Source: a virus
Taxonomy: Duplodnaviria; Heunggongvirae; Uroviricota; Caudoviricetes
Strand: one strand, 5' to 3'
Virus record (IMG/VR): IMGVR_UViG_2695420708_000010
DNA: 9,602 bases
Shown here: positions 1 to 9,602 of the stretch, piece after piece
Layout: each line of letters opens with the position of its first letter
Numbering within the stretch: the first letter of the stretch is position 1
Made by a program: the position numbers and the translations under genes
The notes under the pieces: generated by a model
The model's database searches: none
Told to the model about the DNA's origin: nothing
The model's input: the letters and a program-made list of their open reading frames with translations, nothing else

Positions 1-167
1 AAGAACAAATGGTAGTGTCCGCTATTGCCAGTACACCTCAGGGTATAAGGGGTTATGGCCACCGGACTACCAAACGGCTGCCAGCCCTCTTTCAGTTTAT
101 GTGTCAGCTTTTCCGCAAGATCTGACGGCGGCGCCGCCCTGACAACATCATAGTGTTTAAATGCCAT
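1..167 (-). CDS. Partial hypothetical ORF running off the left window edge (5' end inside, 3' end outside); begins MAFKHYDVVRAAPPSDLAEKLTHKLKEGWQPFGSPVAITPYTLRCTGNSGHYHLF
   Basis: Own minus-strand translation: ATG at 167..165 with GGTGGA about 9 nt upstream; frame stays open for 55 codons to position 3. Absent from the supplied ORF track because it has no in-window stop. Competes with the plus-strand ORF 9..125. Confidence 0.3.
   Translation of the reverse strand, partial: MAFKHYDVVRAAPPSDLAEKLTHKLKEGWQPFGSPVAITPYTLRCTGNSGHYHLF
3..40. repeat. Left arm of terminal inverted repeat (38 bp, perfect reverse complement of 9565..9602)
   Basis: Reverse complement of 9565..9602 equals 3..40 base for base; match ends at 41 versus 9564; the right arm reaches the window edge, so true length is unknown. 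Confidence 0.9.
9..125 (+). pseudogene. 38-aa ORF whose first 10 codons (MVVSAIASTP) match the start of the 9366..9596 gene at the opposite window end, then diverge; probable gene-start remnant
   Basis: ATG at 9..11, stop TGA at 123..125; the first 30 coding nt lie inside the terminal inverted repeat. Confidence 0.25.
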
Positions 168-360
168 GGTTCTTTCCACCATCTGAAAAATAATTCTTTA
201 AAATACCTGACATGTAATACAGAAAAAACACAAAACCATACCTTAAATAAAAACCTGATTATCAAGCAGATATGCATGGATAAACTACAAGACGAGATAT
301 AAACCACCCTGCATTTAAATAAACAATAAACAACATCAGAAAAATAATTCTGCTCTATGG

Positions 361-387
361 TTTACATTCAAAAATATCATTTATACT
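361..387 (+). promoter_or_regulatory. Candidate sigma70 promoter for ORF 428..763 (TTTACA, 15-bp spacer, TATACT)
   Basis: -35-like TTTACA at 361..366 and -10-like TATACT at 382..387, about 40 nt upstream of the ATG; RBS AAGGAA precedes the ATG at 428. Confidence 0.4.
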
Positions 388-427
388 TTTCAGAACATCA
401 CCAGCAAGGCATAAACAAGGAAACTAA

Positions 428-763
428 ATGAAGTGGATTGTGATTGATACAGTTATCCAGCCATCATGCGGAATATCTTTTTCAGTCATATGGAGTAAAA
501 TAAAATTAATAATCTGGTATCAATCGGATGCTTTCTTACCTCCTGAAAGTATATTTACACTGACTCACACAGGCATCATGCTCAATAACAAAGTGCTACC
601 TGTAACCATTTACAACGTAGTACCATTCAATAAAACATTCTGGAATTCAATCAAAAATAGCCAGGAATGCCCTACAAATACAGATAACGTATTGAATGAA
701 TGCTTTAATAACCGTTGCACTCTGCAAATATGTCCTTATGGACTAAAACAACAAAGTCCATAA
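428..763 (+). CDS. Hypothetical 111-aa protein, AT-rich, four Cys in the C-terminal 30 residues; no family recognised
   Basis: ORF track; ATG with AAGGAA RBS about 8 nt upstream and a candidate promoter; opposite orientation to all neighbouring genes; identical second copy at 3672..4007. Confidence 0.45.
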
Positions 764-797
764 GGAGTTTACTCACATCTGACAAAATCAATATAAA

Positions 798-819
798 CAG
801 CCCCTCCGGAGAGGGGCTG
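798..819. terminator. Perfect 9-bp stem, 4-nt loop hairpin (CAGCCCCTC-CGGA-GAGGGGCTG); intrinsic terminator for minus-strand transcription, possible 3' end for ORF 428..763
   Basis: On the minus strand the hairpin is followed by a U-rich tract (TTTATATTGATTTTG); on the plus strand there is no T tract after it. Confidence 0.5.
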
Positions 820-1012
820 GAGAGTGGCGCTATGTGCCATTGCATGGTGCCGGGTGCCTCCCGGTGAATTCAGTACCAGCACCTGAATCCGCGATTATCC
901 CATATACCTACTCGCTGATTGCCCCTCCGCACAGGGGGATTCACCATGCCAGTTTCTTTTAACAAACTCCCCGCAAAACAGACAACTGTCAACCGTCTGA
1001 ATTGTGAGACAT

Positions 1013-1040
1013 TTAAAAAAAAGGCCCGCAAAAGCGAGCC
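1013..1040 (-). terminator. Rho-independent terminator immediately downstream of the Arg-UCU tRNA
   Basis: Minus-strand RNA GGCUCGC-UUUU-GCGGGCC (7-bp stem with one G-U pair) followed by eight U. Confidence 0.7.
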
Positions 1041-1054
1041 AGGGAAAATAAGTG

Positions 1055-1131
1055 TGGCGCGTTGTACTGGATTCGAACCAGTGACCGATTGCTTAGAAGG
1101 CAATTGCTCTGTCCGGCTGAGCTAACAACGC
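1055..1131 (-). tRNA. argO: tRNA-Arg, anticodon UCU (reads AGA), 77 nt with encoded CCA
   Basis: Hand-folded cloverleaf: acceptor GCGTTGT/ACAACGC, D stem GCTC/GAGC, anticodon stem ATTGC/GCAAT with loop CTTCTAA, T stem ACTGG/CCAGT with loop TTCGAAT. Symbol assigned from memory of the Stx-phage ileZ-argN-argO cluster; not verified. Confidence 0.88.
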
Positions 1132-1144
1132 ATGATGCAGATAA

Positions 1145-1221
1145 TGGACCGCCATCGGGGACTTGAACCCCGCGCAGCCAGCTTCGAAGGCTGGCGCTCT
1201 TTCCTGATGAGCTAATGGCGG
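1145..1221 (-). tRNA. argN: tRNA-Arg, anticodon UCG (reads CGA/CGG), 77 nt with encoded CCA
   Basis: Hand-folded: acceptor CCGCCAT/ATGGCGG, D stem GCTC/GAGC, anticodon stem CCAGC/GCTGG with loop CTTCGAA, T stem CGGGG/CCCCG with loop TTCAAGT. Unusual 5' C. Symbol from memory; not verified. Confidence 0.8.
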
Positions 1222-1228
1222 TATGTGA

Positions 1229-1304
1229 TGGTGGCCCTTGCTGGATTTGAACCAGCGACCTGGCGATTATGAGTCGCTCGCTCTCACCACTGAGCTAAAG
1301 GGCC
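1229..1304 (-). tRNA. ileZ: tRNA-Ile2-like, anticodon CAU (ileX/ileZ type, presumably lysidine-modified to read AUA), 76 nt with encoded CCA
   Basis: Hand-folded: acceptor GGCCCTT/AAGGGCC, D loop AGTGGTGA, anticodon loop CTCATAA, T loop TTCAAAT. Resembles E. coli ileX as I recall it; Met versus Ile cannot be settled from sequence alone. Confidence 0.85.
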
Positions 1305-1344
1305 GGGAGCCGCATAATAACGACGCGTAATTAATTCTTCAATA

Positions 1345-2403
1345 TCATCCGTTCTGGCTGACTAAATCCTGTACTTCCCGAACCGTCTGCTCAAAACGTT
1401 CAGTCTCCAGCTCAACGCCAATTGCACGACGCCCGAGCGCCAGTGCCGCTTTCACTGTCGAACCCAACCCCATGAAAAAATCTGCAATCAGGTCACCCGG
1501 ACGACTGCTAGCGCTGATTATCTGCTGCAGCATTTCTGCCGGTTTTTCGCACGGATGTTTCCCGGGATAGAACTGCACCGGTTTATGCGTCCACACATCG
1601 GTATACGGCACCTGCACCGTCACGCCAAAATACCGCCGCAGATGTTTATATTCACTCAGCAGCTCCGCATACTGCCGGTTCAGTGAGGTATACGTATCCA
1701 CCAGCTGGTGGTGGAGCTTTTCCAGTTCACCACGCCGATGCTTCTCTTCTGCCACCCGGGCAAACAGCGCCTGTAATTTCAGATAATCGCTTTCATTCGG
1801 CAACTGCCACTGACCGGCACTGAACCAGTGCGACACCATGTTTTTCTTTCCTGTGGCATCTGCAATCTGTTTTGCCGTTATCCCCAGGGCAGCTCGCGCA
1901 TCACGAAAGTAAGAAATCAGCGGGGCCATCACATGCTGTTTCAGTGCACTGCCCTTCGCCGCATACCCGGCATCTTTCGGACGATACGGCCCCTGATAAT
2001 GTTCCGCGAACAGAATGCGCTCTGTGGCGGGGAAATACGCCCGCAGGCTTTCCTTGTTGCATCCGTTCCAGCGTCCGGACGGCTTCGCCCAGATAATATG
2101 GTTCAGCACACTGAAGCGTTCACGCATCATGATTTCGATATCAGATGCCAGGCGATGACCACAGAACAGGTAAAGACTTCCGGCAGGTTTCAGCACCCGC
2201 CAGAACTGCGCCAGACACTGGTCCAGCCACTTCAGGTAATCATCGTCGCCCTTCCACTGGTTATCCCAGCCCTCAGGCTTCACTTTAAAGTACGGCGGGT
2301 CCGTGACTATCAGGTCAACAGAATTTTCGGGTAACGACCGGATAAATTCCAGGCAGTCGGCGTTGATTAACTCACAACTGGATATTTTTACAGTATTAAG
2401 CAT
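1345..2403 (-). CDS. DNA methyltransferase, beta-class N6-adenine or N4-cytosine (N6_N4_Mtase family), 352 aa
   Basis: ORF track. Motif IV DPPY (VDLIVTDPPYF) precedes the AdoMet motif I (DFFMGLGST), the order that defines beta-class amino-MTases; C-terminal HPCEKP...ASSRPGD block resembles YhdJ-type enzymes. ATG start, weak SD. Confidence 0.9.
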   Translation of the reverse strand: MLNTVKISSCELINADCLEFIRSLPENSVDLIVTDPPYFKVKPEGWDNQWKGDDDYLKWLDQCLAQFWRVLKPAGSLYLFCGHRLASDIEIMMRERFSVLNHIIWAKPSGRWNGCNKESLRAYFPATERILFAEHYQGPYRPKDAGYAAKGSALKQHVMAPLISYFRDARAALGITAKQIADATGKKNMVSHWFSAGQWQLPNESDYLKLQALFARVAEEKHRRGELEKLHHQLVDTYTSLNRQYAELLSEYKHLRRYFGVTVQVPYTDVWTHKPVQFYPGKHPCEKPAEMLQQIISASSRPGDLIADFFMGLGSTVKAALALGRRAIGVELETERFEQTVREVQDLVSQNG

Positions 2404-2435
2404 GGATCATTAAGCCTGTCTCTGATAGGCTCATT

Positions 2436-2454
2436 CTGCTTTTGCGCAAAGCAG
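2436..2454. promoter_or_regulatory. Imperfect palindrome CTGCTTT-TGCGC-AAAGCAG about 33 bp upstream of the methyltransferase start; candidate operator or 5'-UTR hairpin
   Basis: 7-bp inverted arms around a 5-bp centre; no U tract, so not a terminator. Confidence 0.35.
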
Positions 2455-2495
2455 TGGGCCTGAGGTTTGCTTGTGAACCCAACGCATGAGCAGAT

Positions 2496-2526
2496 GGCTG
2501 GTGGGTGCCCCTAACACCCACCAGCC
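2496..2526. other. Perfect 12-bp stem, 7-nt loop hairpin (GGCTGGTGGGTG-CCCCTAA-CACCCACCAGCC) between ORF 2554..2751 and the methyltransferase
   Basis: Arms are exact reverse complements; not followed by a U tract on either strand; function unknown. Confidence 0.5.
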
Positions 2527-2537
2527 GCCCATTTACC

Positions 2538-2566
2538 ACAAATAAAAAAGCCTTCACTGCGGAAGG
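2538..2566 (-). terminator. Rho-independent terminator overlapping the stop codon of ORF 2554..2751
   Basis: Minus-strand RNA GCCUUC-CGCAGU-GAAGGC followed by UUUUUUAUUUG. Confidence 0.65.
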
Positions 2567-2751
2567 CGTCTGTAACAACCGAACTGATAGTCTGCCAGAC
2601 CCGCCATAACCAGCTGGGTCAGTATTAACTGGCAGCGTTCGCGTGAAAGGTAAGTATTCTGCGCTATCTCCCCGACTGTCGCCGGTTCGGTAACGCTTAA
2701 TTCATTAAACACCACTCTGGCGGTTTCTGTCATATCCTGCTGTTTTAGCAT
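2554..2751 (-). CDS. Hypothetical 65-aa protein with a helix-turn-helix-like segment (TVGEIAQNTYLSRERCQLILTQL); possible small DNA-binding regulator
   Basis: ORF track; ATG at 2751..2749 with AAGGAAAAG RBS; ends in a terminator; lies just upstream of the methyltransferase. Confidence 0.5.
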   Translation of the reverse strand: MLKQQDMTETARVVFNELSVTEPATVGEIAQNTYLSRERCQLILTQLVMAGLADYQFGCYRRLPQ

Positions 2752-2869
2752 GTCTTTTCCTTTTCCGGTTAACGTGACACACCAATAACTCTTGTCGAAA
2801 AAGCCAGCAAGCTGAAAGACAGGTATTCACCGCCACCAGCGCGTTTACTGTACTGACGCGATTTCAGTC

Positions 2870-2896
2870 ATAAAAAACCCGCTCGGCGGCGGGTTG
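2870..2896 (-). terminator. tR'-like terminator, second copy (identical to 5209..5235)
   Basis: Minus-strand RNA A-CCCGC-CGCCGA-GCGGG-UUUUUUAU; lies inside the 2870..3394 repeat block. Confidence 0.7.
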
Positions 2897-2942
2897 TAGA
2901 AACTCTTCTAACGTCAGGCATAAAACGCCCATAGTTATGACG

Positions 2943-2970
2943 AATTTACCACAGATTCCGGAAAAATCAA
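2943..2970 (-). promoter_or_regulatory. PR'-like late promoter, second copy (identical to 5282..5309)
   Basis: Same sequence as the promoter downstream of the intact Q gene, offset 2339 bp. Confidence 0.4.
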
Positions 2971-2975
2971 CCTTG

Positions 2976-3394
2976 TTACCTAGTTACCTTTTTTAACTGC
3001 CGCTCAGCCCATGCTTCTTCAATATCAAACCGGGTCACCAGCGCATCATAAAATTTCTTAACTGTTTTTTCCCATGACGCGCGTGTTATCTGGTTTGTCA
3101 CCTCGCATATAGCATTAAATGCCTCCGTTGATGGTAGTCTTTCATAGCCACGACCACCACAACGCTGGCAGTCTCTGATAACAGGCATACCACGTTTTAC
3201 CGACTCTTCACGATGAATGGCGACACCACGCCCACGGCAATCCTTACAGGCGGTGGAAACCTCACCCTTTCCGCCACACTCCGGACAGGCAACTTTTACC
3301 ACCTCCCTGACTTTTTTCCATTCTTCCCAGTAAGACGGATACACACCTTTCGTACACTTTGCCCATACCGGCGGCTTACCATCCGGATACTGGA
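2976..3394 (-). pseudogene. 3' fragment of a Q-like antiterminator gene (C-terminal ~139 codons with the CxxCxGxG zinc-finger repeats), fused at 3394/3396 to the AT-rich module
   Basis: 2870..3394 matches 5209..5733; the intact gene's N-terminal ~134 codons are missing. The 191-aa track ORF 2976..3551 takes its first 52 codons from AT-rich module DNA with a GTG start and no SD. Confidence 0.8.
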
Positions 3395-3604
3395 AAGTGT
3401 TTAAATGCCATGGTTCTTTCCACCATCTGAAAAATAATTCTTTAAAATACCTGACATGTAATACAGAAAAAACACAAAACCATACCTTAAATAAAAACCT
3501 GATTATCAAGCAGATATGCATGGATAAACTACAAGACGAGATATAAACCACCCTGCATTTAAATAAACAATAAACAACATCAGAAAAATAATTCTGCTCT
3601 ATGG

Positions 3605-3631
3605 TTTACATTCAAAAATATCATTTATACT
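3605..3631 (+). promoter_or_regulatory. Candidate sigma70 promoter for ORF 3672..4007 (copy of 361..387)
   Basis: Identical sequence to copy A. Confidence 0.4.
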
Positions 3632-3671
3632 TTTCAGAACATCACCAGCAAGGCATAAACAAGGAAACTAA

Positions 3672-4007
3672 ATGAAGTGGATTGTGATTGATACAGTTAT
3701 CCAGCCATCATGCGGAATATCTTTTTCAGTCATATGGAGTAAAATAAAATTAATAATCTGGTATCAATCGGATGCTTTCTTACCTCCTGAAAGTATATTT
3801 ACACTGACTCACACAGGCATCATGCTCAATAACAAAGTGCTACCTGTAACCATTTACAACGTAGTACCATTCAATAAAACATTCTGGAATTCAATCAAAA
3901 ATAGCCAGGAATGCCCTACAAATACAGATAACGTATTGAATGAATGCTTTAATAACCGTTGCACTCTGCAAATATGTCCTTATGGACTAAAACAACAAAG
4001 TCCATAA
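3672..4007 (+). CDS. Hypothetical 111-aa protein, second copy identical to 428..763
   Basis: ORF track; identical translation; same RBS and promoter. Confidence 0.45.
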
Positions 4008-4041
4008 GGAGTTTACTCACATCTGACAAAATCAATATAAA

Positions 4042-4063
4042 CAGCCCCTCCGGAGAGGGGCTG
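4042..4063. terminator. 9-bp stem hairpin, copy of 798..819
   Basis: Identical sequence to copy A. Confidence 0.5.
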
Positions 4064-4287
4064 GAGAGTGGCGCTATGTGCCATTGCATGGTGCCGGGTG
4101 CCTCCCGGTGAATTCAGTACCAGCACCTGAATCCGCGATTATCCCATATACCTACTCGCTGATTGCCCCTCCGCACAGGGGGATTCACCATGCCAGTTTC
4201 TTTTAACAAACTCCCCGCAAACCAGACAACAGTCAACCGCCTGAATTGTGAAGTATTTAAAAATTTCTCCCGCTAACTGATACCCGG

Positions 4288-4374
4288 CTAACAGTCTGGC
4301 GTTTTCTTTTTCAGCAACGGGAAAGCAACAACCACCACACCCGCCACCAGCACACCGTCAGCCAGCACTGACAT
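4288..4374 (-). CDS. Candidate 28-aa hydrophobic peptide (MSVLADGVLVAGVVVVAFPLLKKKTPDC), single predicted TM segment then a basic tail
   Basis: Own translation; ATG at 4374..4372, stop TAG at 4290..4288; only a weak GGA SD; below the ORF-track size cutoff. Confidence 0.25.
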   Translation of the reverse strand: MSVLADGVLVAGVVVVAFPLLKKKTPDC

Positions 4375-4454
4375 TATCCGGCTGCTGCAATGCCATTCAC
4401 AAAAACAGTAAGCAATCACTTTTTACCGTAACAGGTGATAATCCAGATATGTAT

Positions 4455-4781
4455 CTACCCCAGATGAGTAATCCGAAGTTCATCCATACCACAGGTCCTG
4501 GCTATTCTGTTGTACTCCTGAACAAGAGCAAATAATTCTGAATTAGCAACCATGAACTCATCGCAAACCCTCTGTATAGCATCACTATTCAGAATAATAA
4601 CGTCTCTTCCCGAAAGACGATCAGGAGTACAGAACAAAACTGTCAAACGGCTGAAGGCCTTTGCTCGTGCTGCATTGACTATATCAATACGCTGCCTAAG
4701 GATGAAACACCCCGACGCCTCATCAATATTCACTCTACCCACACCATATGAATGATAAATATTTAATGCTGAAAAAACCAT
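4455..4781 (-). CDS. Hypothetical ~108-aa protein (117 aa from the TTG at 4808); no family recognised
   Basis: ORF track 4455..4808 begins at TTG; first ATG is at 4781..4779; no convincing SD for either start; sits directly downstream of the tRNA cluster on the late strand. Confidence 0.3.
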   Translation of the reverse strand: MVFSALNIYHSYGVGRVNIDEASGCFILRQRIDIVNAARAKAFSRLTVLFCTPDRLSGRDVIILNSDAIQRVCDEFMVANSELFALVQEYNRIARTCGMDELRITHLG

Positions 4782-4918
4782 TAGACCGTATAACAAACAC
4801 TCAATCAATACTTAACAGAACTTTTATTTTTGACAAACATAAAATATTTTCAACAATATCCTGAGCCAGGTATATTTCAGTATAAGGCTCTGCCGGAAGG
4901 AATCTGGAAGAATGAATA

Positions 4919-4995
4919 TGGCGCGCTGTACTGGATTCGAACCAGTGACCGATTGCTTAGAAGGCAATTGCTCTGTCCGGCTGAGCTAACAACGC
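4919..4995 (-). tRNA. argO: tRNA-Arg, anticodon UCU, 77 nt; differs from the 1055..1131 copy by one acceptor-stem change giving a U-G pair
   Basis: Same hand-folded cloverleaf as 1055..1131; plus strand reads GCGCTGT where the other copy reads GCGTTGT. Confidence 0.85.
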
Positions 4996-5008
4996 TGAAT
5001 ACCGATAA

Positions 5009-5088
5009 TGGACCGCCATCGGGGACCCGCCCCCGCACCAACAACCCTGTTATCATGTCGTCTGCTCTTCCTGATAAGCTAATGGCGG
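5009..5088 (-). pseudogene. Degenerate tRNA-Arg-like element: acceptor stem and D arm conserved, anticodon arm, variable loop and T loop replaced
   Basis: The 5' ~25 nt and 3' ~17 nt align with the intact Arg-UCG tRNA at 1145..1221; the middle (AGACGACATGATAACAGGGTTGTTGGTGCGGGGGCGGG) gives no anticodon stem-loop by eye and the T loop lacks TTC. Confidence 0.55.
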
Positions 5089-5095
5089 TTTGTGA

Positions 5096-5171
5096 TGGTG
5101 GCCCTTGCTGGATTTGAACCAGCGACCTGGCGATTATGAGTCGCTCGCTCTCACCACTGAGCTAAAGGGCC
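5096..5171 (-). tRNA. ileZ: tRNA-Ile2-like, anticodon CAU, 76 nt; identical to 1229..1304
   Basis: Identical sequence to the other copy. Confidence 0.85.
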
Positions 5172-5208
5172 GGGAGCAGAATAATAACGGTCCGTAATTA
5201 ATTCCGCA

Positions 5209-5235
5209 ATAAAAAACCCGCTCGGCGGCGGGTTG
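5209..5235 (-). terminator. tR'-like rho-independent terminator between the Q-like gene and the tRNA cluster
   Basis: Minus-strand RNA A-CCCGC-CGCCGA-GCGGG followed by UUUUUU; about 80 nt downstream of the Q stop. Confidence 0.7.
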
Positions 5236-5281
5236 TAGAAACTCTTCTAACGTCAGGCATAAAACGCCCATAGTTATGACG

Positions 5282-5309
5282 AATTTACCACAGATTCCGG
5301 AAAAATCAA
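5282..5309 (-). promoter_or_regulatory. PR'-like late promoter (-35 TTGATT, 16-bp spacer, extended -10 TGgTAAATT); would give a ~65-nt transcript ending at tR'
   Basis: Hexamers at 5309..5304 and 5287..5282 on the minus strand, immediately after the Q stop codon (5315..5317). Confidence 0.4.
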
Positions 5310-5314
5310 CCTTG

Positions 5315-6136
5315 TTACCTAGTTACCTTTTTTAACTGCCGCTCAGCCCATGCTTCTTCAATATCAAACCGGGTCACCAGCGCATCATAAAATTTCTTAA
5401 CTGTTTTTTCCCATGACGCGCGTGTTATCTGGTTTGTCACCTCGCATATAGCATTAAATGCCTCCGTTGATGGTAGTCTTTCATAGCCACGACCACCACA
5501 ACGCTGGCAGTCTCTGATAACAGGCATACCACGTTTTACCGACTCTTCACGATGAATGGCGACACCACGCCCACGGCAATCCTTACAGGCGGTGGAAACC
5601 TCACCCTTTCCGCCACACTCCGGACAGGCAACTTTTACCACCTCCCTGACTTTTTTCCATTCTTCCCAGTAAGACGGATACACACCTTTCGTACACTTTG
5701 CCCATACCGGCGGCTTACCATCCGGATACTGGATCTTGTTTGTAAAAACCTCGCTTTCAATAAATTTTTTTCCGTGACAGCAGGGGCACTGTTTTTTGCT
5801 CGCCGCGCTACGGGCATAATCTTCAAACGCATACGAAGCCATAATACGCATCACTGCCGGTTTTATTTCTGCCGGGAGTTTTCTTAACGCCGCCACGCGA
5901 TCACACCGACTGAGTGCATATTCTGTCAGCAATTCTGTTGCCCGCTCTCTGTCATTCATACTAATGCCCATTTTCCCAAGGAACGCAGAAACCCCCATCT
6001 CAGCCCGATTCTGTGTCATGCCCTGCGCGGCCATCACATCAGTGATACTCAGCGCATCTTTCGACGTTGAGGCCGATGCATCAGTCAGGCCGGGGGATTT
6101 TGGGGAGTAGTATTTCGGTAAATCTTCCAGTTTCAT
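5315..6136 (-). CDS. Antitermination protein Q-like, 273 aa, with DnaJ-type CxxCxGxG zinc-finger repeats
   Basis: ORF track; position between rusA and PR'/tR'/tRNAs is the canonical lambdoid Q position; ATG overlaps the rusA stop (ATGA); motifs CPCCHGKK, CPECGGKG, CKDCRGRG, CQRCGGRG. Family assignment rests on synteny and motifs, not a search. Confidence 0.75.
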   Translation of the reverse strand: MKLEDLPKYYSPKSPGLTDASASTSKDALSITDVMAAQGMTQNRAEMGVSAFLGKMGISMNDRERATELLTEYALSRCDRVAALRKLPAEIKPAVMRIMASYAFEDYARSAASKKQCPCCHGKKFIESEVFTNKIQYPDGKPPVWAKCTKGVYPSYWEEWKKVREVVKVACPECGGKGEVSTACKDCRGRGVAIHREESVKRGMPVIRDCQRCGGRGYERLPSTEAFNAICEVTNQITRASWEKTVKKFYDALVTRFDIEEAWAERQLKKVTR

Positions 6137-6513
6137 TTTTTGACCTGCCCTTCAAGCATTATGGGATAAATCTTCACCCCCAGACGTCCACCAGATACTG
6201 GCTGAGCACGAACGATATTGATTTCATCAAACTGCTCATCGTCCATTAGCAACCCCGCATGCGTCAGCGCATCCAGCGGCGCTTTCAGAATATTGTCCAG
6301 GTCACGGCGGCGCTTATCCGGTGGTTCTGCAATAATTTTTATTGCCAACCTTCCGGACAGGCTTAATTTCAGCCGCTGCTGGCGAACAATAAGCGCCACT
6401 GCCCGGCGATAACGCTCCCCGGCTTTTGATACAAAATATGTGCTGCCACGACGACGCCAGTAAGTGTTCACCGTCGGCGGGTAAGGTAAAACAAATTCTA
6501 TGCGCTCGGTCAT
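6133..6513 (-). CDS. rusA: Holliday-junction resolvase RusA, 126 aa
   Basis: ORF track; shows the RusA-family DxxRRRDLDN motif as I recall it; usual nin-region position just upstream of Q. Confidence 0.88.
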   Translation of the reverse strand: MTERIEFVLPYPPTVNTYWRRRGSTYFVSKAGERYRRAVALIVRQQRLKLSLSGRLAIKIIAEPPDKRRRDLDNILKAPLDALTHAGLLMDDEQFDEINIVRAQPVSGGRLGVKIYPIMLEGQVKK

Positions 6514-7572
6514 TTATGCTTTCCACTTCAGAACACCCGAATTTCTCGCGTGCATTAAAAAACGAATCAGCAACAACAGCTGACTGCCGTGTTTCTCTTC
6601 AAAATCTTTTACTCCGGCATGTAGTTCGTTACGGCATTTACGGCATAACGGAATAACAAACAAATCATCAGCCTTTGTTCCCATCCCTCCCAGTCCATGA
6701 CCAATGATGTGATGCGGATCATCTGCCTGATTGCCACACGTCATGCATTTCTGCGTTTTTACCCAGCGCGTGTATACAGGCATCTCTTCCCGTTGTGATT
6801 TCTGGCGCTGGAGATACTGAGCCGGTGACTCCGGATCAACGGCAATGCTGACCACCGTCTTTTCCTGTGGTGGGTTCTGTTGCTGGTGGACGTGAGGCAG
6901 TAACGCAATATTTTTTGTGCGCTGCTTCAGTATGCTGGTGGCTGTCTGCTCTCCCGGTATGATGTCGCTTTCACTGTACACAGAGCGAATTTTTTCCGCA
7001 CGCAACCCCAGCGAACGACGTAATACCGCTTCCGGTAGCGCGTCCGCCACCTGATTGCGGACCGCCCACCAGGATAATTCAGCCAGAGATAATTCACGCT
7101 CCTGCGTACCGCTTATTGCGTGACCGATGACGTCAATCATCCATGCTGACAGGTTTTGATGAGCAAGTTGCTCGAGTGATTCGGATGTCTGGTCACGCAG
7201 CTGGTTGTCGCAGTGCCAGCACAACACCATTGCGCCGGTACCATAACGGTGAATGACGGTTTCGCTGTGATGATAATCGCCGTGTGGCCACTGGCAGGAT
7301 TTAATATGGCGCAACAGCCAGTCAGACAATGCACCAGCACCACCAGCAGCACGAATCACCCGTGCGTTACTGAAAAACGGCAGCAATGTTTTGTCTTCCA
7401 CCAGCGGCTGGCGAGCGGCAGGAACGACCCCGGACGGCAGATTACGCATGCTTTTTGGTTCCGGCTCCACCAGTATTCTGCCGTTATGGAATGCTGACAT
7501 TGATTCACGGCCTGGCTTAACGATAACCAGACCGAGTTCCGGTACCAGAACAGGTCGAAGTAATACCCGCAC
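6514..7572 (-). CDS. DUF968-like prophage protein (YdfU-like), 352 aa, with a Cys/His-rich C-terminus (CMTCG...DPHH...CRKC)
   Basis: ORF track; GTG start at 7572 with GGAGG 5 nt upstream; family assigned from memory of Qin-prophage ydfU neighbourhood and motifs. Confidence 0.7.
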   Translation of the reverse strand: MRVLLRPVLVPELGLVIVKPGRESMSAFHNGRILVEPEPKSMRNLPSGVVPAARQPLVEDKTLLPFFSNARVIRAAGGAGALSDWLLRHIKSCQWPHGDYHHSETVIHRYGTGAMVLCWHCDNQLRDQTSESLEQLAHQNLSAWMIDVIGHAISGTQERELSLAELSWWAVRNQVADALPEAVLRRSLGLRAEKIRSVYSESDIIPGEQTATSILKQRTKNIALLPHVHQQQNPPQEKTVVSIAVDPESPAQYLQRQKSQREEMPVYTRWVKTQKCMTCGNQADDPHHIIGHGLGGMGTKADDLFVIPLCRKCRNELHAGVKDFEEKHGSQLLLLIRFLMHARNSGVLKWKA

Positions 7573-7573
7573 A

Positions 7574-7852
7574 TTACCTCCAGATCCGTTGCTGGAATGT
7601 GCGGGACGGACGCGTTGGCCGTTCGGAGTAAGGGAGCCTGACGGAGATTATCCAGTGACGGTAGTCGAGGCTAAGGGCTTTTTTAACCTCGCATCCGCGC
7701 CTGCGGTAACACTGAATGAGCCATTCGGCCTGTTCTTCAGTGCATGGGGGATGCTGGTACCAATCAGATTTAAATGCGTGAGAGCGCCGCCCGTGCCTGC
7801 TGGCAAAGACGGCTGAATTATCAGAATTGTGTAGTCTGGAATTTTGCGCCAT
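7574..7852 (-). CDS. Hypothetical 92-aa protein
   Basis: ORF track; ATG with GGAG SD about 8 nt upstream; stop one base before the DUF968 start codon. Confidence 0.5.
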   Translation of the reverse strand: MAQNSRLHNSDNSAVFASRHGRRSHAFKSDWYQHPPCTEEQAEWLIQCYRRRGCEVKKALSLDYRHWIISVRLPYSERPTRPSRTFQQRIWR

Positions 7853-7918
7853 CGGCTTTCTCCGGTGGCACAGTGTTACTCAACAGGGGTTCAGCCCTGC
7901 GCTGAATTGTAGATGAAT

Positions 7919-8179
7919 TCACTCATCTTCAAAAGCAGAAAAACCAGCCTTAATCCCAGCTTCTTTCAGAGACGGCAACGATGTGACAAATTCATTTGCA
8001 CGCGAAATAAAACCATCCGTCACAAGCCCATCCACAAAATGAATTAACGCAGCTCCACTCTTCCTTTGTTGAGACTGTAAACATTTAATACGGCAGTGGC
8101 TGACAATAGCGCCATTCTCAACGCGCACAGTATAGAGGCCATCTTCACTAAAAATTTCACGTAATTCTTCGATTTTCAT
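7919..8179 (-). CDS. Hypothetical ~86-aa protein (possibly Rem-like, by position only)
   Basis: ORF track 7919..8182 starts at TTG; the ATG is at 8179..8177 with GGAAGGA about 9 nt upstream. The Rem suggestion rests only on the ydfU-rem-hokD gene order of the Qin prophage. Confidence 0.5.
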   Translation of the reverse strand: MKIEELREIFSEDGLYTVRVENGAIVSHCRIKCLQSQQRKSGAALIHFVDGLVTDGFISRANEFVTSLPSLKEAGIKAGFSAFEDE

Positions 8180-8300
8180 CAACAGAATCCTTCCAGATAA
8201 ATAGCACTCCCCTGTTCGGGGTCCATCCCTCTTCTCCCTGCGCGCTACTTAAGTATTTTTGATTCTATTCCGGCACCATCTAAAACTTCAAACGCGTTGA

Positions 8301-8329
8301 AAATAAAAACAAAAACCCGCCGAAGCGGG
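8301..8329 (-). terminator. Rho-independent terminator downstream of hok (UUCG tetraloop hairpin plus U tract)
   Basis: Minus-strand RNA CCCGC-UUCG-GCGGG followed by UUUUUGUUUUUAUUU. Confidence 0.7.
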
Positions 8330-8399
8330 TTAAGTGTGGGTGCATTGAGGATGCCTGACCCATCAGAGGTGGCGAGGGATTTCTCCCCCGCCTGGTCTC

Positions 8400-8555
8400 T
8401 TACTCCTCAGGTTCGTAAGCTGTGAAGACAGCGACCTCCGTCTGGCCGGTTCGAATTCGTACCTCGCAGAGGTCTTTCCTCGTTACCAGTGCCGTCACTA
8501 TGACGGTTAAACAGATGACGATCAGGGCGATTAACATCGCCTTTTGCTGCTTCAT
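8400..8555 (-). CDS. hokD: Hok/Gef-family type I toxin, 51 aa (HokD/RelF-like)
   Basis: MKQQKAMLIALIVICLTVIVTALVTRKDLCEVRIRTGQTEVAVFTAYEPEE is a classic Hok sequence and matches HokD as I recall it; ATG at 8555..8553 with AGGAG 9 nt upstream. The track ORF 8400..8612 is an in-frame 19-codon upstream extension. Confidence 0.88.
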   Translation of the reverse strand: MKQQKAMLIALIVICLTVIVTALVTRKDLCEVRIRTGQTEVAVFTAYEPEE

Positions 8556-8766
8556 AGCCTGCTTCTCCTTGCCTTTCGGCACGTAAGAGGCTAACCTAGA
8601 TTTGCCGTTCATAGATTGAGCCTCAGATTAATGTTAAGCGTCTTGCCGGACGCGTAATGTTAACTGGGGCTTTTCTCTATCTGCCTTTTGGTGTTCATGC
8701 CTGAGACAGATAGCCTCAAGCACCCGCTGCAATTCTACTTAACTCTCCTTTTCCCGCAAACCGTTT

Positions 8767-8850
8767 TTATCCCCAGCGGCAAATCGAATACACCACCAGC
8801 GCCACCGCCATCGCAATTCCTACCGTTGTTAATGCTTCAGGCCAGGTCAT
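8767..8850 (-). CDS. Candidate 27-aa hydrophobic peptide ([27 protein letters not shown])
   Basis: Own translation; ATG at 8850..8848 overlaps the stop of the upstream 114-aa gene (ATGA); GGAGGA about 9 nt upstream; below the ORF-track size cutoff. Confidence 0.35.
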
Positions 8851-9191
8851 CGTAAAATATCCTCCACGCTTATCAGTCCGTTCCGCTCCAGATAACTCAT
8901 CGCCTTATCCGGTAATTTGCAGTCTGGCTTCGCTTTTCTCAGTTGCCAGGTTAACTGCTTTACCAGCATGGTTAACTCATCGACCAGACGCTGATATCCC
9001 ACTGGTTTGTATTCATGCAATTTACCGGCTGGCTCTGCTGCCAGCGATACCAGTGCGATTTCCAGAACAGCAATATCCATCTTATATGTGCGGATGATGT
9101 CATGGTCGATTGTGCCCGGTATGCACAGTCTCTGTGCTTCAATAGTCTCCTCTGCGTGAGCTATTAACTGCTCTCTGGTAAAAGTCGTCAT
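8847..9191 (-). CDS. Hypothetical 114-aa protein
   Basis: ORF track; start overlaps the stop of the upstream 55-aa ORF (ATGA); N-terminal half resembles that ORF. Confidence 0.55.
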
Positions 9192-9355
9192 GCCGTAGCC
9201 CCTTCTTGATATTTTTCAAACCAGAACACAACCGGCTCTGCTTCCAGCGATGCCAGCGCAATCCGTGCCAGTTCCATTTGTTCACCACGGGTAAGCCCGT
9301 TTTCAAGCGGGTTTTTAATGAACAATTCAATACGTTCTTTGGTAATAGTGGTCAT
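9188..9355 (-). CDS. Hypothetical 55-aa protein, paralogous to the N-terminal half of the 114-aa ORF
   Basis: Own translation ([55 protein letters not shown]); AAGGAG SD 7 nt upstream; the track reports the overlapping out-of-frame ORF 9139..9330 instead. Confidence 0.5.
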
Positions 9356-9365
9356 GTGTTACTCC

Positions 9366-9596
9366 TTAACCCGCAGTGCTTTCAACTGATGAGGGGAACA
9401 AAATCTTTTCATCAAACCCTGCATTCATATCATGAACAGCAACACACCAATCCATCGACGAACGATTATCAAGAGCCTCCATGATTTCATCCATGCGGCG
9501 TAGGTCATACAGGTAAATGCTTTTATCGCCAATGGTGTAAAAGCCAATTTTTTTCGGTGATGGATGAGGTGTACTGGCAATAGCGGACACTACCAT
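9366..9596 (-). CDS. Hypothetical 76-aa protein; start codon and first 10 codons lie in the right terminal inverted repeat
   Basis: ORF track; ATG at 9596..9594; upstream region is outside the window. A plus-strand ATG at 9564 opens an outward frame (MRCTGNSGHYHLF) in the same region. Confidence 0.45.
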   Translation of the reverse strand: MVVSAIASTPHPSPKKIGFYTIGDKSIYLYDLRRMDEIMEALDNRSSMDWCVAVHDMNAGFDEKILFPSSVESTAG

Positions 9597-9602
9597 TTGT
9601 TC
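9565..9602. repeat. Right arm of terminal inverted repeat (reverse complement of 3..40)
   Basis: See left arm. Confidence 0.9.

What the first reader, a model, noticed from the sequence alone, without database searches (positions are those of the whole stretch)
1..9602. Window bracketed by perfect inverted repeats that contain overlapping, oppositely oriented start codons
Positions 3..40 are the exact reverse complement of 9565..9602, and the match runs to the window edge, so the arms probably continue outside. The inward-facing frame (MVVSAIASTP) continues as a 76-aa ORF on the right but ends after 38 aa on the left. The outward-facing frame (RCTGNSGHYHLF) starts at an ATG exactly at the homology boundary on the right but has a 43-codon upstream extension on the left. 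This pattern fits an inversion or recombination between inverted copies of a gene, so the whole 9.5 kb segment may be invertible or a rearrangement product.
Basis: seen in the sequence. Interest (0 to 1): 0.55.

Follow-up and report, generated by a model that had tools for sequence, protein, structure and literature searches.

The report
IS600 ends flanking a prophage mosaic
The perfect inverted repeats at the two window edges are the last 38-40 bases of two oppositely oriented copies of IS600, a common Shigella insertion sequence, so this is an ordinary mobile-element boundary and not a new invertible gene switch.

Summary
In detail: 3-40 is the exact reverse complement of 9565-9602. Both arms are the tip of IS600 (IS3 family, 1,264 bp), specifically the end just past the transposase stop codon. 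The same 38-mer occurs 4,996 times in 2,667 E. coli genomes. In finished Shigella sonnei chromosomes a complete IS600 sits outside each junction.

The "overlapping start codons" are by-products. One ORF reads out of the IS tip into a disrupted prophage gene. The other is a truncated DUF1737 gene reading into the IS.

The 9.5 kb is not one invertible unit. In the finished S. sonnei chromosome CP032523 the two junctions lie about 778 kb apart, at the inner edges of two decayed lambdoid prophages. The window is a four-block patchwork of those two loci, each block about 100% identical. One abrupt joint, at base 3395, is found nowhere else and looks like an assembly concatenation.

The DNA outside the left-junction IS600 in one strain lies, reversed, outside the right-junction IS600 in two other assemblies. 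That is the pattern expected from recombination between these inverted IS600 copies. This kind of event is already well known in Shigella, so interest is low.

The parts
1..40 (+). Terminal 40 nt of an IS600 copy (the end next to the transposase stop, IRR). The element extends leftwards out of the window, with its transposase on the + strand.
   Evidence: Identical to IS600 nt 1-40 in L002, which is annotated as an IS3-like IS600 family transposase. L004 continues for 107 nt of IS600. A complete IS600 sits at this junction in L034.
9565..9602 (-). Terminal 38 nt of a second IS600 copy (the same IRR end). The element extends rightwards, with its transposase on the - strand.
   Evidence: The 38-mer hits 4,996 places in 2,667 E. 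coli genomes. A complete 1,264-bp IS600 follows this junction in L011 and in eight of the ten finished loci L015-L024 (L015-L017, L019-L023); in L018 and L024 the copy was not fully readable.
41..167 (-). First 43 codons of a DUF1737 (nanS-p-like esterase) gene, cut by the left IS600. It reads on into the IS tip (…RCTGNSGHYHLFFF*) to give a 57-aa ORF.
   Evidence: Translation. A 57-aa PF08410 gene is called next to an IS600 transposase in L034/L035. The uninterrupted site is present in L001, L010, L015 and L016.
9..125 (+). Incidental 38-aa ORF that starts inside the IS600 tip and reads outwards.
   Evidence: No gene with this product is on record.
9366..9596 (-). 76-aa fusion ORF. Eleven new N-terminal residues (MVVSAIASTPH; the first 10 codons lie in the IS600 tip, the 11th spans the junction) are followed by the last 65 codons of an 87-aa prophage gene whose first 22 codons were removed by the insertion.
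   Evidence: Compared with the intact L001 gene 13358-13621. Called as a gene in 795 collection blocks.
152..1019 (.). Copy 1 of the repeated module A (DUF1737 start, IraM/PmrD-family gene at 428-763 +).
   Evidence: Self-BLAST gives 152-1019 = 3396-4263 at 99.3%. Window 1-977 is identical to S. sonnei locus 2.
1055..1304 (-). Prophage tRNA cluster 1 (Arg-tct, Arg-tcg, Met/Ile-type cat).
   Evidence: ARAGORN.
1345..2403 (-). Phage DNA methyltransferase (PF01555).
2870..3394 (-). 3' part of an antiterminator Q gene (truncated extra copy). It ends exactly where the Q genes of locus 1 and locus 2 stop being identical.
   Evidence: Draft contigs L029 and L031 end at exactly this point.
3395..3395 (.). 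Single base 'A' at an abrupt joint. Both parental loci have T here. Probably an artificial contig joint.
   Evidence: The joint is absent from 5,426 E. coli genomes, IMG/VR, GTDB representatives, JGI metagenomes and all 52 fetched loci. Sister records carry single-N separators.
3396..5208 (.). Copy 2 of module A (IraM at 3672-4007 +), then a DUF3927 gene (4288-4419 -), a 108-aa ORF (4455-4781 -) and tRNA cluster 2 (4919-5171 -). About 100% identical to locus 2.
5315..6136 (-). Complete antiterminator Q gene (273 aa, PF03589).
6133..7572 (-). RusA resolvase (6133-6513) and a DUF968/HNH protein (6514-7572).
7919..9355 (-). Small prophage genes: Rem (7919-8182), Hok-family toxin (8400-8612), 114-aa ORF (8847-9191) and 55-aa ORF (9188-9355).

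Best explanation
Shown: The two arms are the outermost 38-40 nt of the right end (the end just past the transposase stop) of two oppositely oriented copies of IS600, a 1,264-bp IS3-family insertion sequence with 3-bp target duplications. Each copy is inserted in a decayed lambdoid prophage of Shigella sonnei or a very close relative. The left copy cuts a DUF1737/esterase gene after codon 43. The right copy cuts an 87-aa early-region gene after codon 22. The 'start codons' in the arms belong to accidental ORFs that read out of, or into, the IS tip. The arms contain no transposase codons.

Shown in finished S. sonnei chromosomes: The two junctions belong to two different prophage remnants, about 778 kb apart in CP032523. 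The two IS600 copies are inverted repeats bracketing that whole stretch. Strains differ in which junction is linked through IS600 to the same outside flank.

Inferred: That linkage difference arose by homologous recombination inside the inverted IS600 copies, which inverts the DNA between them (about 0.85 likely). No dedicated invertase is involved.

Inferred, about 0.7 likely: The window is not a true contiguous piece of chromosome. It is a draft-assembly product: two contigs that each end in collapsed IS600 sequence, each having switched between the two near-identical prophage loci inside shared repeats, and joined end to end at base 3395.
For: 1. The 38-mer occurs at 4,996 places in 2,667 of 5,426 E. 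coli genomes, up to 43 per genome, on chromosomes and plasmids. It abuts genes annotated 'IS3-like element IS600 family transposase'.
2. The full element in L002 is 1,264 bp with a GCG/GCG target duplication. Its two ends differ (TGAGGTGTACTGG... vs TGAGGTAGCCTGA...), and both window arms are the first type, so the two copies are inverted.
3. Intact prophages read straight through both sites.
4. A complete IS600 follows the right junction in L011 and in eight of the ten finished loci L015-L024, and the left junction in L034. L004 carries 107 nt of IS600 at both ends.
5. The chromosomes are S. sonnei.
6. The left junction lies at about 3.524 Mb and the right junction at about 4.302 Mb of CP032523, in window orientation.
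7. Window blocks 1-977, 814-3394, 3396-5312 and 5209-9602 are about 100% identical to locus 2, locus 1, locus 2 and locus 1 in turn.
8. Base 3395 is A where both parents have T. The joint is found nowhere else. Sister IMG/VR records use single-N separators between non-adjacent pieces, and draft contigs end at the 3394 equivalent.
9. The right-junction outer flank in L023 (3,000 nt) and L011 (2,229 nt) is 100% identical to the reverse complement of the left-junction outer flank in L034. Eight other loci have a different flank.
10. The ORF explanations were checked by translation.
11. Most draft contigs that carry the right junction are 2-10 kb long (599 of 795 blocks), as expected for IS-bounded contigs.
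Against: 1. The source of the window was not found, so its true flanks are unknown.
2. The window contains no N, so reading base 3395 as a placeholder is an inference.
3. Position 152/3396 is not an obvious repeat boundary. Only a 21-nt stretch is shared there with the other DUF1737 copy.
4. One N-free contig (L004, 6.2 kb) also carries both junctions at its ends, so a short IS600-bracketed version could be real in some isolates.
5. The reciprocal junction expected from the inversion (reverse of flank G, then IS600, then the left junction) was not observed.
6. Neither IS600 copy has matching target duplications in either state, so the history involves more than one event.
Confidence: 0.9

Rival explanations
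1. The window is a true contiguous 9.5-kb chromosomal segment of its source strain. In this reading it is a compact IS600-bracketed mosaic made by gene conversion or template switching between the two prophage remnants. It could then invert by IS600-IS600 recombination, or move like a composite transposon.
For: The window has no N. L004 is an N-free 6.2-kb contig with both junctions and 107 nt of IS600 at each end. A 5-nt TGTTT microhomology lies 3 nt from the joint. The IS600 and the shared modules could provide homology for conversion between the loci.
Against: None of the finished S. sonnei chromosomes examined shows this arrangement, and the junctions are about 778 kb apart in CP032523. 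Every block is about 100% identical to standard locus 1 or locus 2, and the switches fall at shared repeats. Base 3395 matches neither parent. The joint was absent from every collection scanned. At least three separate recombination events would be needed. The outer flanks seen in finished genomes show no shared target duplication (TAG vs AAA).
Confidence: 0.2
2. This is a programmed DNA inversion switch (Hin/Gin/shufflon-like), in which short inverted repeats let a recombinase swap alternative 5' ends of a gene.
For: Only the superficial picture supports this: perfect inverted repeats carrying oppositely oriented ATGs.
Against: The arms are multi-copy IS600 tips. No recombinase or invertase gene lies in the window. 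The ORFs in the arms are a disrupted gene and accidental read-throughs. The repeat is 1,264 bp long in relatives, not a short recombination site.
Confidence: 0.01
3. The match between the two ends is a chance or low-complexity match.
For: None.
Against: The expected number of such pairs is about 6e-16. The sequence is a defined IS terminus.
Confidence: 0

Closest known systems
IS600 (IS3 family insertion sequence of Shigella / E. coli)
   Same: The arms are identical to the IS600 terminus. The element has TG...CA ends, is 1,264 bp long, makes 3-bp target duplications, and encodes an OrfAB transposase made by programmed frameshift. IS600 is one of five insertion sequences expanded in all Shigella species (PMC7373316).
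   Different: Nothing differs in the element itself. Only 38-40 nt of each copy lie inside the window.
IS-mediated chromosomal inversions in Shigella (homologous recombination between inverted IS copies)
   Same: Two inverted IS600 copies bracket about 778 kb, and strains show alternative linkage of the same outside flank across the IS. IS-flanked inversions are reported for S. sonnei lineages (PMC12795559). In S. dysenteriae 1, 42 inversions were found, all associated with IS elements (PMC7819885).
   Different: I did not find this particular IS600 pair or inversion described in the papers I read. Only one of the two reciprocal junctions was seen here.
IS600-associated defective Stx prophage region of Shigella dysenteriae type 1
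   Same: It is a decayed lambdoid late-regulatory region (Q, tRNAs, DUF1737/nanS-p side) with IS600 inserted (PMC7819885). My own recollection, not verified here, is that McDonough and Butterton 1999 described amplification and deletion via flanking IS600 copies.
   Different: The window has no stx genes. The organism is S. sonnei-like. The IS copies are inverted, not direct.
Composite transposon (two IS copies mobilising the DNA between them)
   Same: Two copies of one IS in inverted orientation flank a DNA segment.
   Different: There is no common target duplication outside the pair, no second site of occurrence as a unit, and the two copies are about 778 kb apart in finished genomes.

Membership tests
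IS600 / IS3 family insertion sequence (identity of the arms) | Terminal sequence identical to the IS600 end, beginning 5'-TG and ending CA-3' | tested here: met
   Arms match IS600 nt 1-38 and 1-40 at 100% (TGAGGTGTACTGG...). L004 extends the match to 107 nt on both sides.
IS600 / IS3 family insertion sequence (identity of the arms) | Multi-copy, at many unrelated sites on chromosomes and plasmids | tested here: met
   4,996 places in 2,667 genomes: 4,126 on chromosomes and 870 on plasmids.
IS600 / IS3 family insertion sequence (identity of the arms) | Element of about 1.2-1.5 kb encoding OrfA/OrfAB (HTH plus DDE 'rve') made by programmed -1 frameshift | tested here: met
   Not inside the window. 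It was seen directly outside both junctions in related loci: a 1,264-bp element, annotated 'programmed frameshift', with PF01527 and PF00665.
IS600 / IS3 family insertion sequence (identity of the arms) | 3-bp target-site duplication | tested here: inconclusive
   Present at other copies: GCG/GCG in L002 and GGA/GGA at the locus-1 left copy. Absent at the two copies that give the window arms (TAG/GGG; GGA/AAA or GGA/CTA), as expected after recombination between copies.
IS-mediated inversion by homologous recombination | Two copies of the same IS in inverted orientation | tested here: met
   Both arms are the IRR end. In CP032523 the copies face each other across about 778 kb.
IS-mediated inversion by homologous recombination | Both linkage states found: the same outer flank joined to either inner junction across the IS | tested here: met
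   Flank F-IS600-left junction in L034. Right junction-IS600-reverse of F in L023 and L011, 100% over 3,000 and 2,229 nt.
IS-mediated inversion by homologous recombination | Reciprocal junction present in the same genome | not testable with these tools
   The left-junction locus of CP045932 could not be fetched. S. sonnei genomes are not in the searchable DNA collections.
Composite transposon | One target duplication flanking the whole IS-segment-IS unit, and occurrence of the unit at different sites | tested here: not met
   Outer flanks are TAG and AAA (or CTA). The junctions are about 778 kb apart in the finished genome.
Programmed invertible DNA switch (Hin/Gin/Fim/shufflon type) | Site-specific recombinase gene next to short inverted recombination sites that bound a promoter or alternative gene ends | tested here: not met
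   No recombinase ORF lies in the window. The gene content is Q, RusA, DUF968, methyltransferase, IraM, Hok, Rem and tRNAs. The repeats are IS termini.

The most novel reading that the evidence does not exclude
The source strain really carries this 9.5-kb arrangement. That would be a compact mosaic of two prophage late-regulatory modules, built by template switching or gene conversion between the two distant prophage remnants and bracketed by inverted IS600 copies. Such a segment could flip by recombination or be mobilised as a composite element.
Probability: 0.15. Interest if true: 0.3.

Novelty: already known. Interest (0 to 1): 0.12.

Why it matters
The result matters mainly as a caution. 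In IS-rich genomes such as Shigella, draft contigs and the windows cut from them routinely end in collapsed IS sequence. Perfect inverted repeats at both edges, with 'start codons' inside them, are therefore expected and do not indicate a switch.

There is one minor biological point. This particular inverted IS600 pair sits at the inner edges of two decayed prophages in S. sonnei. It appears to have mediated a chromosomal inversion of roughly 0.78 Mb that differs between sequenced strains. That fits the established picture of IS-driven genome plasticity in Shigella (PMC7373316, PMC12795559, PMC7819885).

Tried and rejected
1. Searching for the window's own source so its flanks could be read. 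Neither junction is in the 5,426 E. coli genomes. The right junction is not in the GTDB representatives. The internal joint is absent from E. coli genomes, IMG/VR (also with a wildcard at 3395), GTDB representatives and JGI metagenomes.
2. Exact-protein look-ups on ORFs spanning the joint. The 191-, 181- and 177-aa versions are not on record. The 122- and 108-aa versions only found frameshifted Q genes or contig ends elsewhere.
3. The 38-aa left-junction ORF is not on record.
4. The predicted simple-insertion outer junction of the left IS600 (…CATCAGGG followed by the IS600 5' end) is not in IMG/VR. In finished genomes that copy abuts unrelated DNA.
5. A simple inversion of the IS-bracketed segment in locus 1 is rejected. 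The segment is co-linear with its left flank, and the left copy there has an intact GGA/GGA duplication.
6. A tandem duplication or a single deletion as the origin of the 3395 joint is rejected. The order of the blocks would require at least three events (my reasoning).
7. Position 152 as a long-repeat boundary is not supported.
Full report
**1. The observation**

The window does begin and end with a perfect inverted repeat. Positions 3-40 are the exact reverse complement of 9565-9602, 38 nt at 100%. About 6e-16 such pairs are expected by chance in 9.6 kb.

- MVVSAIASTP... runs for 38 aa at 9..125(+) and for 76 aa at 9366..9596(-).
- ...RCTGNSGHYHLF begins at an ATG at 9564 on the right. On the left it is preceded by 43 codons, MAFKHY....

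**2. What the arms are**

Whole-window matches in 5,426 complete E. coli genomes cover only 38..9564. Searches with each end alone stop at the same points, so no E. coli genome holds either junction.

The 38-mer on its own hits 4,996 places in 2,667 genomes, up to 43 per genome, on chromosomes and plasmids. It lies directly next to genes annotated 'IS3-like element IS600 family transposase, programmed frameshift'.

In L002 the whole element is 1,264 bp (2501-3764) with a GCG/GCG target duplication. Its two ends differ:
- The end beside the transposase stop reads TGAGGTGTACTGGCAATAGCGG...
- The end beside the transposase start reads TGAGGTAGCCTGAGTTTAACGG...

Both window arms are of the first kind. 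The window is therefore bounded by the same end of two IS600 copies in opposite orientation. Window bases 1-2 continue the IS sequence too. The arms stop 4-6 nt short of the transposase stop codon, so they contain no transposase codons.

**3. The arms are insertions into a prophage**

An intact E. coli prophage (L001) and finished S. sonnei loci read straight through both sites...CTGCATCA|GGGTATAAGG... and ...GGTGATGGA|CAGCGATC....

The interior of the window is a lambdoid late-regulatory region. It holds a DUF1737 fragment, IraM, tRNAs, a DNA methyltransferase, antiterminator Q, RusA, DUF968, Rem, Hok and small ORFs.

This explains the 'start codons':
- The 76-aa ORF is an 87-aa prophage gene whose first 22 codons were replaced by 11 residues, MVVSAIASTPH. 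The first ten codons lie in the IS tip.
- The left-hand ORF is the first 43 codons of a DUF1737 gene reading into the IS, where it stops after ...HLFFF. It is called as a 57-aa gene in finished genomes.
- The 38-aa ORF and the ATG at 9564 are accidental.

**4. The arms continue outside the window**

- L004 is a whole 6.2-kb contig with both junctions and 107 nt of IS600 at each end.
- The junction-spanning 76-aa ORF occurs in 795 blocks of the assembly collection, including many complete chromosomes.
- Two of those chromosomes are identified in papers as Shigella sonnei: CP060117 is UKMCC1015 and CP022457 is 2015C-3566.
- In eight of the ten finished loci examined, a complete 1,264-bp IS600 lies immediately outside the right junction; in L018 and L024 the copy was not fully readable.

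**5. The two junctions belong to different loci**

A look-up of the 108-aa ORF at 4455-4781 found the window's left junction, with a complete IS600, in finished S. sonnei chromosomes. It lies in a second prophage remnant there (L034 = CP023645, L035 = CP032523).

CP032523 also supplied the right-junction locus L016. From the reported ranges, the left junction is at about 3,524,284 and the right junction at about 4,302,286. Both are in the same orientation as in the window (my arithmetic). The two IS600 copies are therefore inverted repeats bracketing about 778 kb, with one prophage remnant at each inner edge.

**6. The window is a patchwork**

Block-by-block comparison with those two loci gives:

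| Window | Best match |
|---|---|
| 1-977 | locus 2, identical |
| 814-3394 | locus 1, 2 mismatches |
| 3395 | A, where both loci have T |
| 3396-5312 | locus 2, 1 mismatch |
| 5209-9602 | locus 1, 2 mismatches |

Two of the three switches fall inside sequence that the loci share. The third, at 3395, is abrupt. It is absent from all E. coli genomes, IMG/VR, GTDB representatives, JGI metagenomes and every fetched locus.

Three further observations bear on this joint:
- Independent draft contigs L029 and L031 end exactly at the 3394 equivalent.
- Sister IMG/VR records (L008, L009, L013, L014) contain single-N separators joining pieces that are not adjacent in finished genomes.
- One piece in L009 starts exactly at the other edge of the shared Q repeat, at 5391.

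My inference, at about 0.7, is that the window is two draft contigs joined at 3395. Each would end in collapsed IS600 sequence, and each would have crossed between the two loci inside shared repeats.

Points against this inference: the window has no N, position 152/3396 is not an obvious repeat edge, and the N-free contig L004 also carries both junctions.

**7. Is anything inverted?**

Within locus 1, the IS-bracketed segment is co-linear with its left flank. The left IS600 there has a clean GGA/GGA duplication, so that segment has not flipped.

The right-junction IS600 has no matching duplication (GGA|IS|AAA or GGA|IS|CTA), and its outer flank differs between strains. The decisive comparison is this:
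- The 3,000 nt outside the right-junction IS600 in L023 (CP045932), and 2,229 nt in L011 (an independent IMG assembly), are 100% identical to the reverse complement of the DNA outside the left-junction IS600 in L034 (CP023645).
- Eight other finished loci carry a different flank, G, at the right junction.

Flank F stays attached to the transposase-start end of IS600, while the other end of the IS is attached to the left junction in one strain and the right junction in another. That is the pattern expected from homologous recombination inside two inverted IS600 copies, which inverts everything between them. The reciprocal junction was not observed. The lack of matching duplications in either state shows that more than one IS-mediated event has occurred here.

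**8. Comparison with what is known**

IS600 is one of five insertion sequences expanded in all Shigella species. Such elements are recognised as causing deletions and rearrangements between homologous copies (PMC7373316). IS-flanked inversions are catalogued in S. sonnei lineages (PMC12795559). In S. dysenteriae 1, 42 inversions were found, all associated with IS elements (PMC7819885).

The finding is therefore an already known kind of feature. The features that define a programmed invertible switch or a composite transposon were tested and not met.

**9. Verdict**

But the element is IS600, the start codons are incidental, and the 9.5 kb is not the invertible unit. Interest is low.

Noticed in passing
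window 152-1019 vs 3396-4263; 2870-3394 vs 5209-5733; joint at 3395: There are large internal direct repeats: two tandem prophage late-regulatory modules, the first with a truncated Q gene. They meet at an abrupt joint whose single base (A) matches neither parental locus (both have T). The joint was found in no other sequence searched.
   Followed up: yes
L015-L022 (window orientation), about 1.3-3.5 kb beyond the right-junction IS600: The prophage DNA outside the right IS600 is inverted relative to the intact prophage (L001 15728->15449 and 13840->13554). It ends with ...GATCGCTGTCC, the missing half of the original GGA target site, abutting unrelated non-IS sequence (TGTGGTGTCATCC...). How that distal breakpoint formed without an IS copy is unexplained.
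   Followed up: partly
L008 2627; L009 1952 and 4268; L013 4036; L014 3927 and 6362: IMG/VR 'viral contig' records from several isolates are concatenations of non-adjacent contigs separated by a single N. Some hold the same prophage region two or three times (L009), and L014 holds the right junction twice.
   Followed up: partly
window 40/41; L015rc 2571-3834; L010 2009-3271 and L016rc 1-124: Three different IS600 insertion sites occur on the lysis-gene side of this prophage region in different strains: DUF1737 codon 43, a GGA site 186 nt left of the window-795 equivalent, and a site about 3.6 kb further left. All have the same orientation, with the transposase-stop end facing the Q region.
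   Followed up: partly
window 7842-8091: A 250-nt stretch next to or overlapping the Rem gene is present in the window, L010 and L016, but missing from L004, L011, L012, L013 and L015. This is an indel polymorphism among otherwise about 100% identical sequences.
   Followed up: no
window 1055-1304 and 4919-5171: The two prophage tRNA clusters differ in content: Arg-tct, Arg-tcg and Met/Ile-type cat in the first, against Arg-tct and cat only in the second. They are only about 87% identical, although the sequence flanking them is nearly identical.
   Followed up: no
L027 (GCA_900486275.1 contig UDVF01000192.1, 6,951 nt): This is another whole contig of a related prophage region with IS600 tips in inverted orientation at both ends, but at different insertion points. 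It illustrates how commonly draft contigs of this region are bounded by IS600.
   Followed up: no
L035rc 5718-8830 (CP032523): In this strain the left-junction IS600 is itself interrupted by a 768-bp IS1-like insertion and abuts a further IS600 copy, with part of flank F deleted. This is nested IS activity at the same spot.
   Followed up: no
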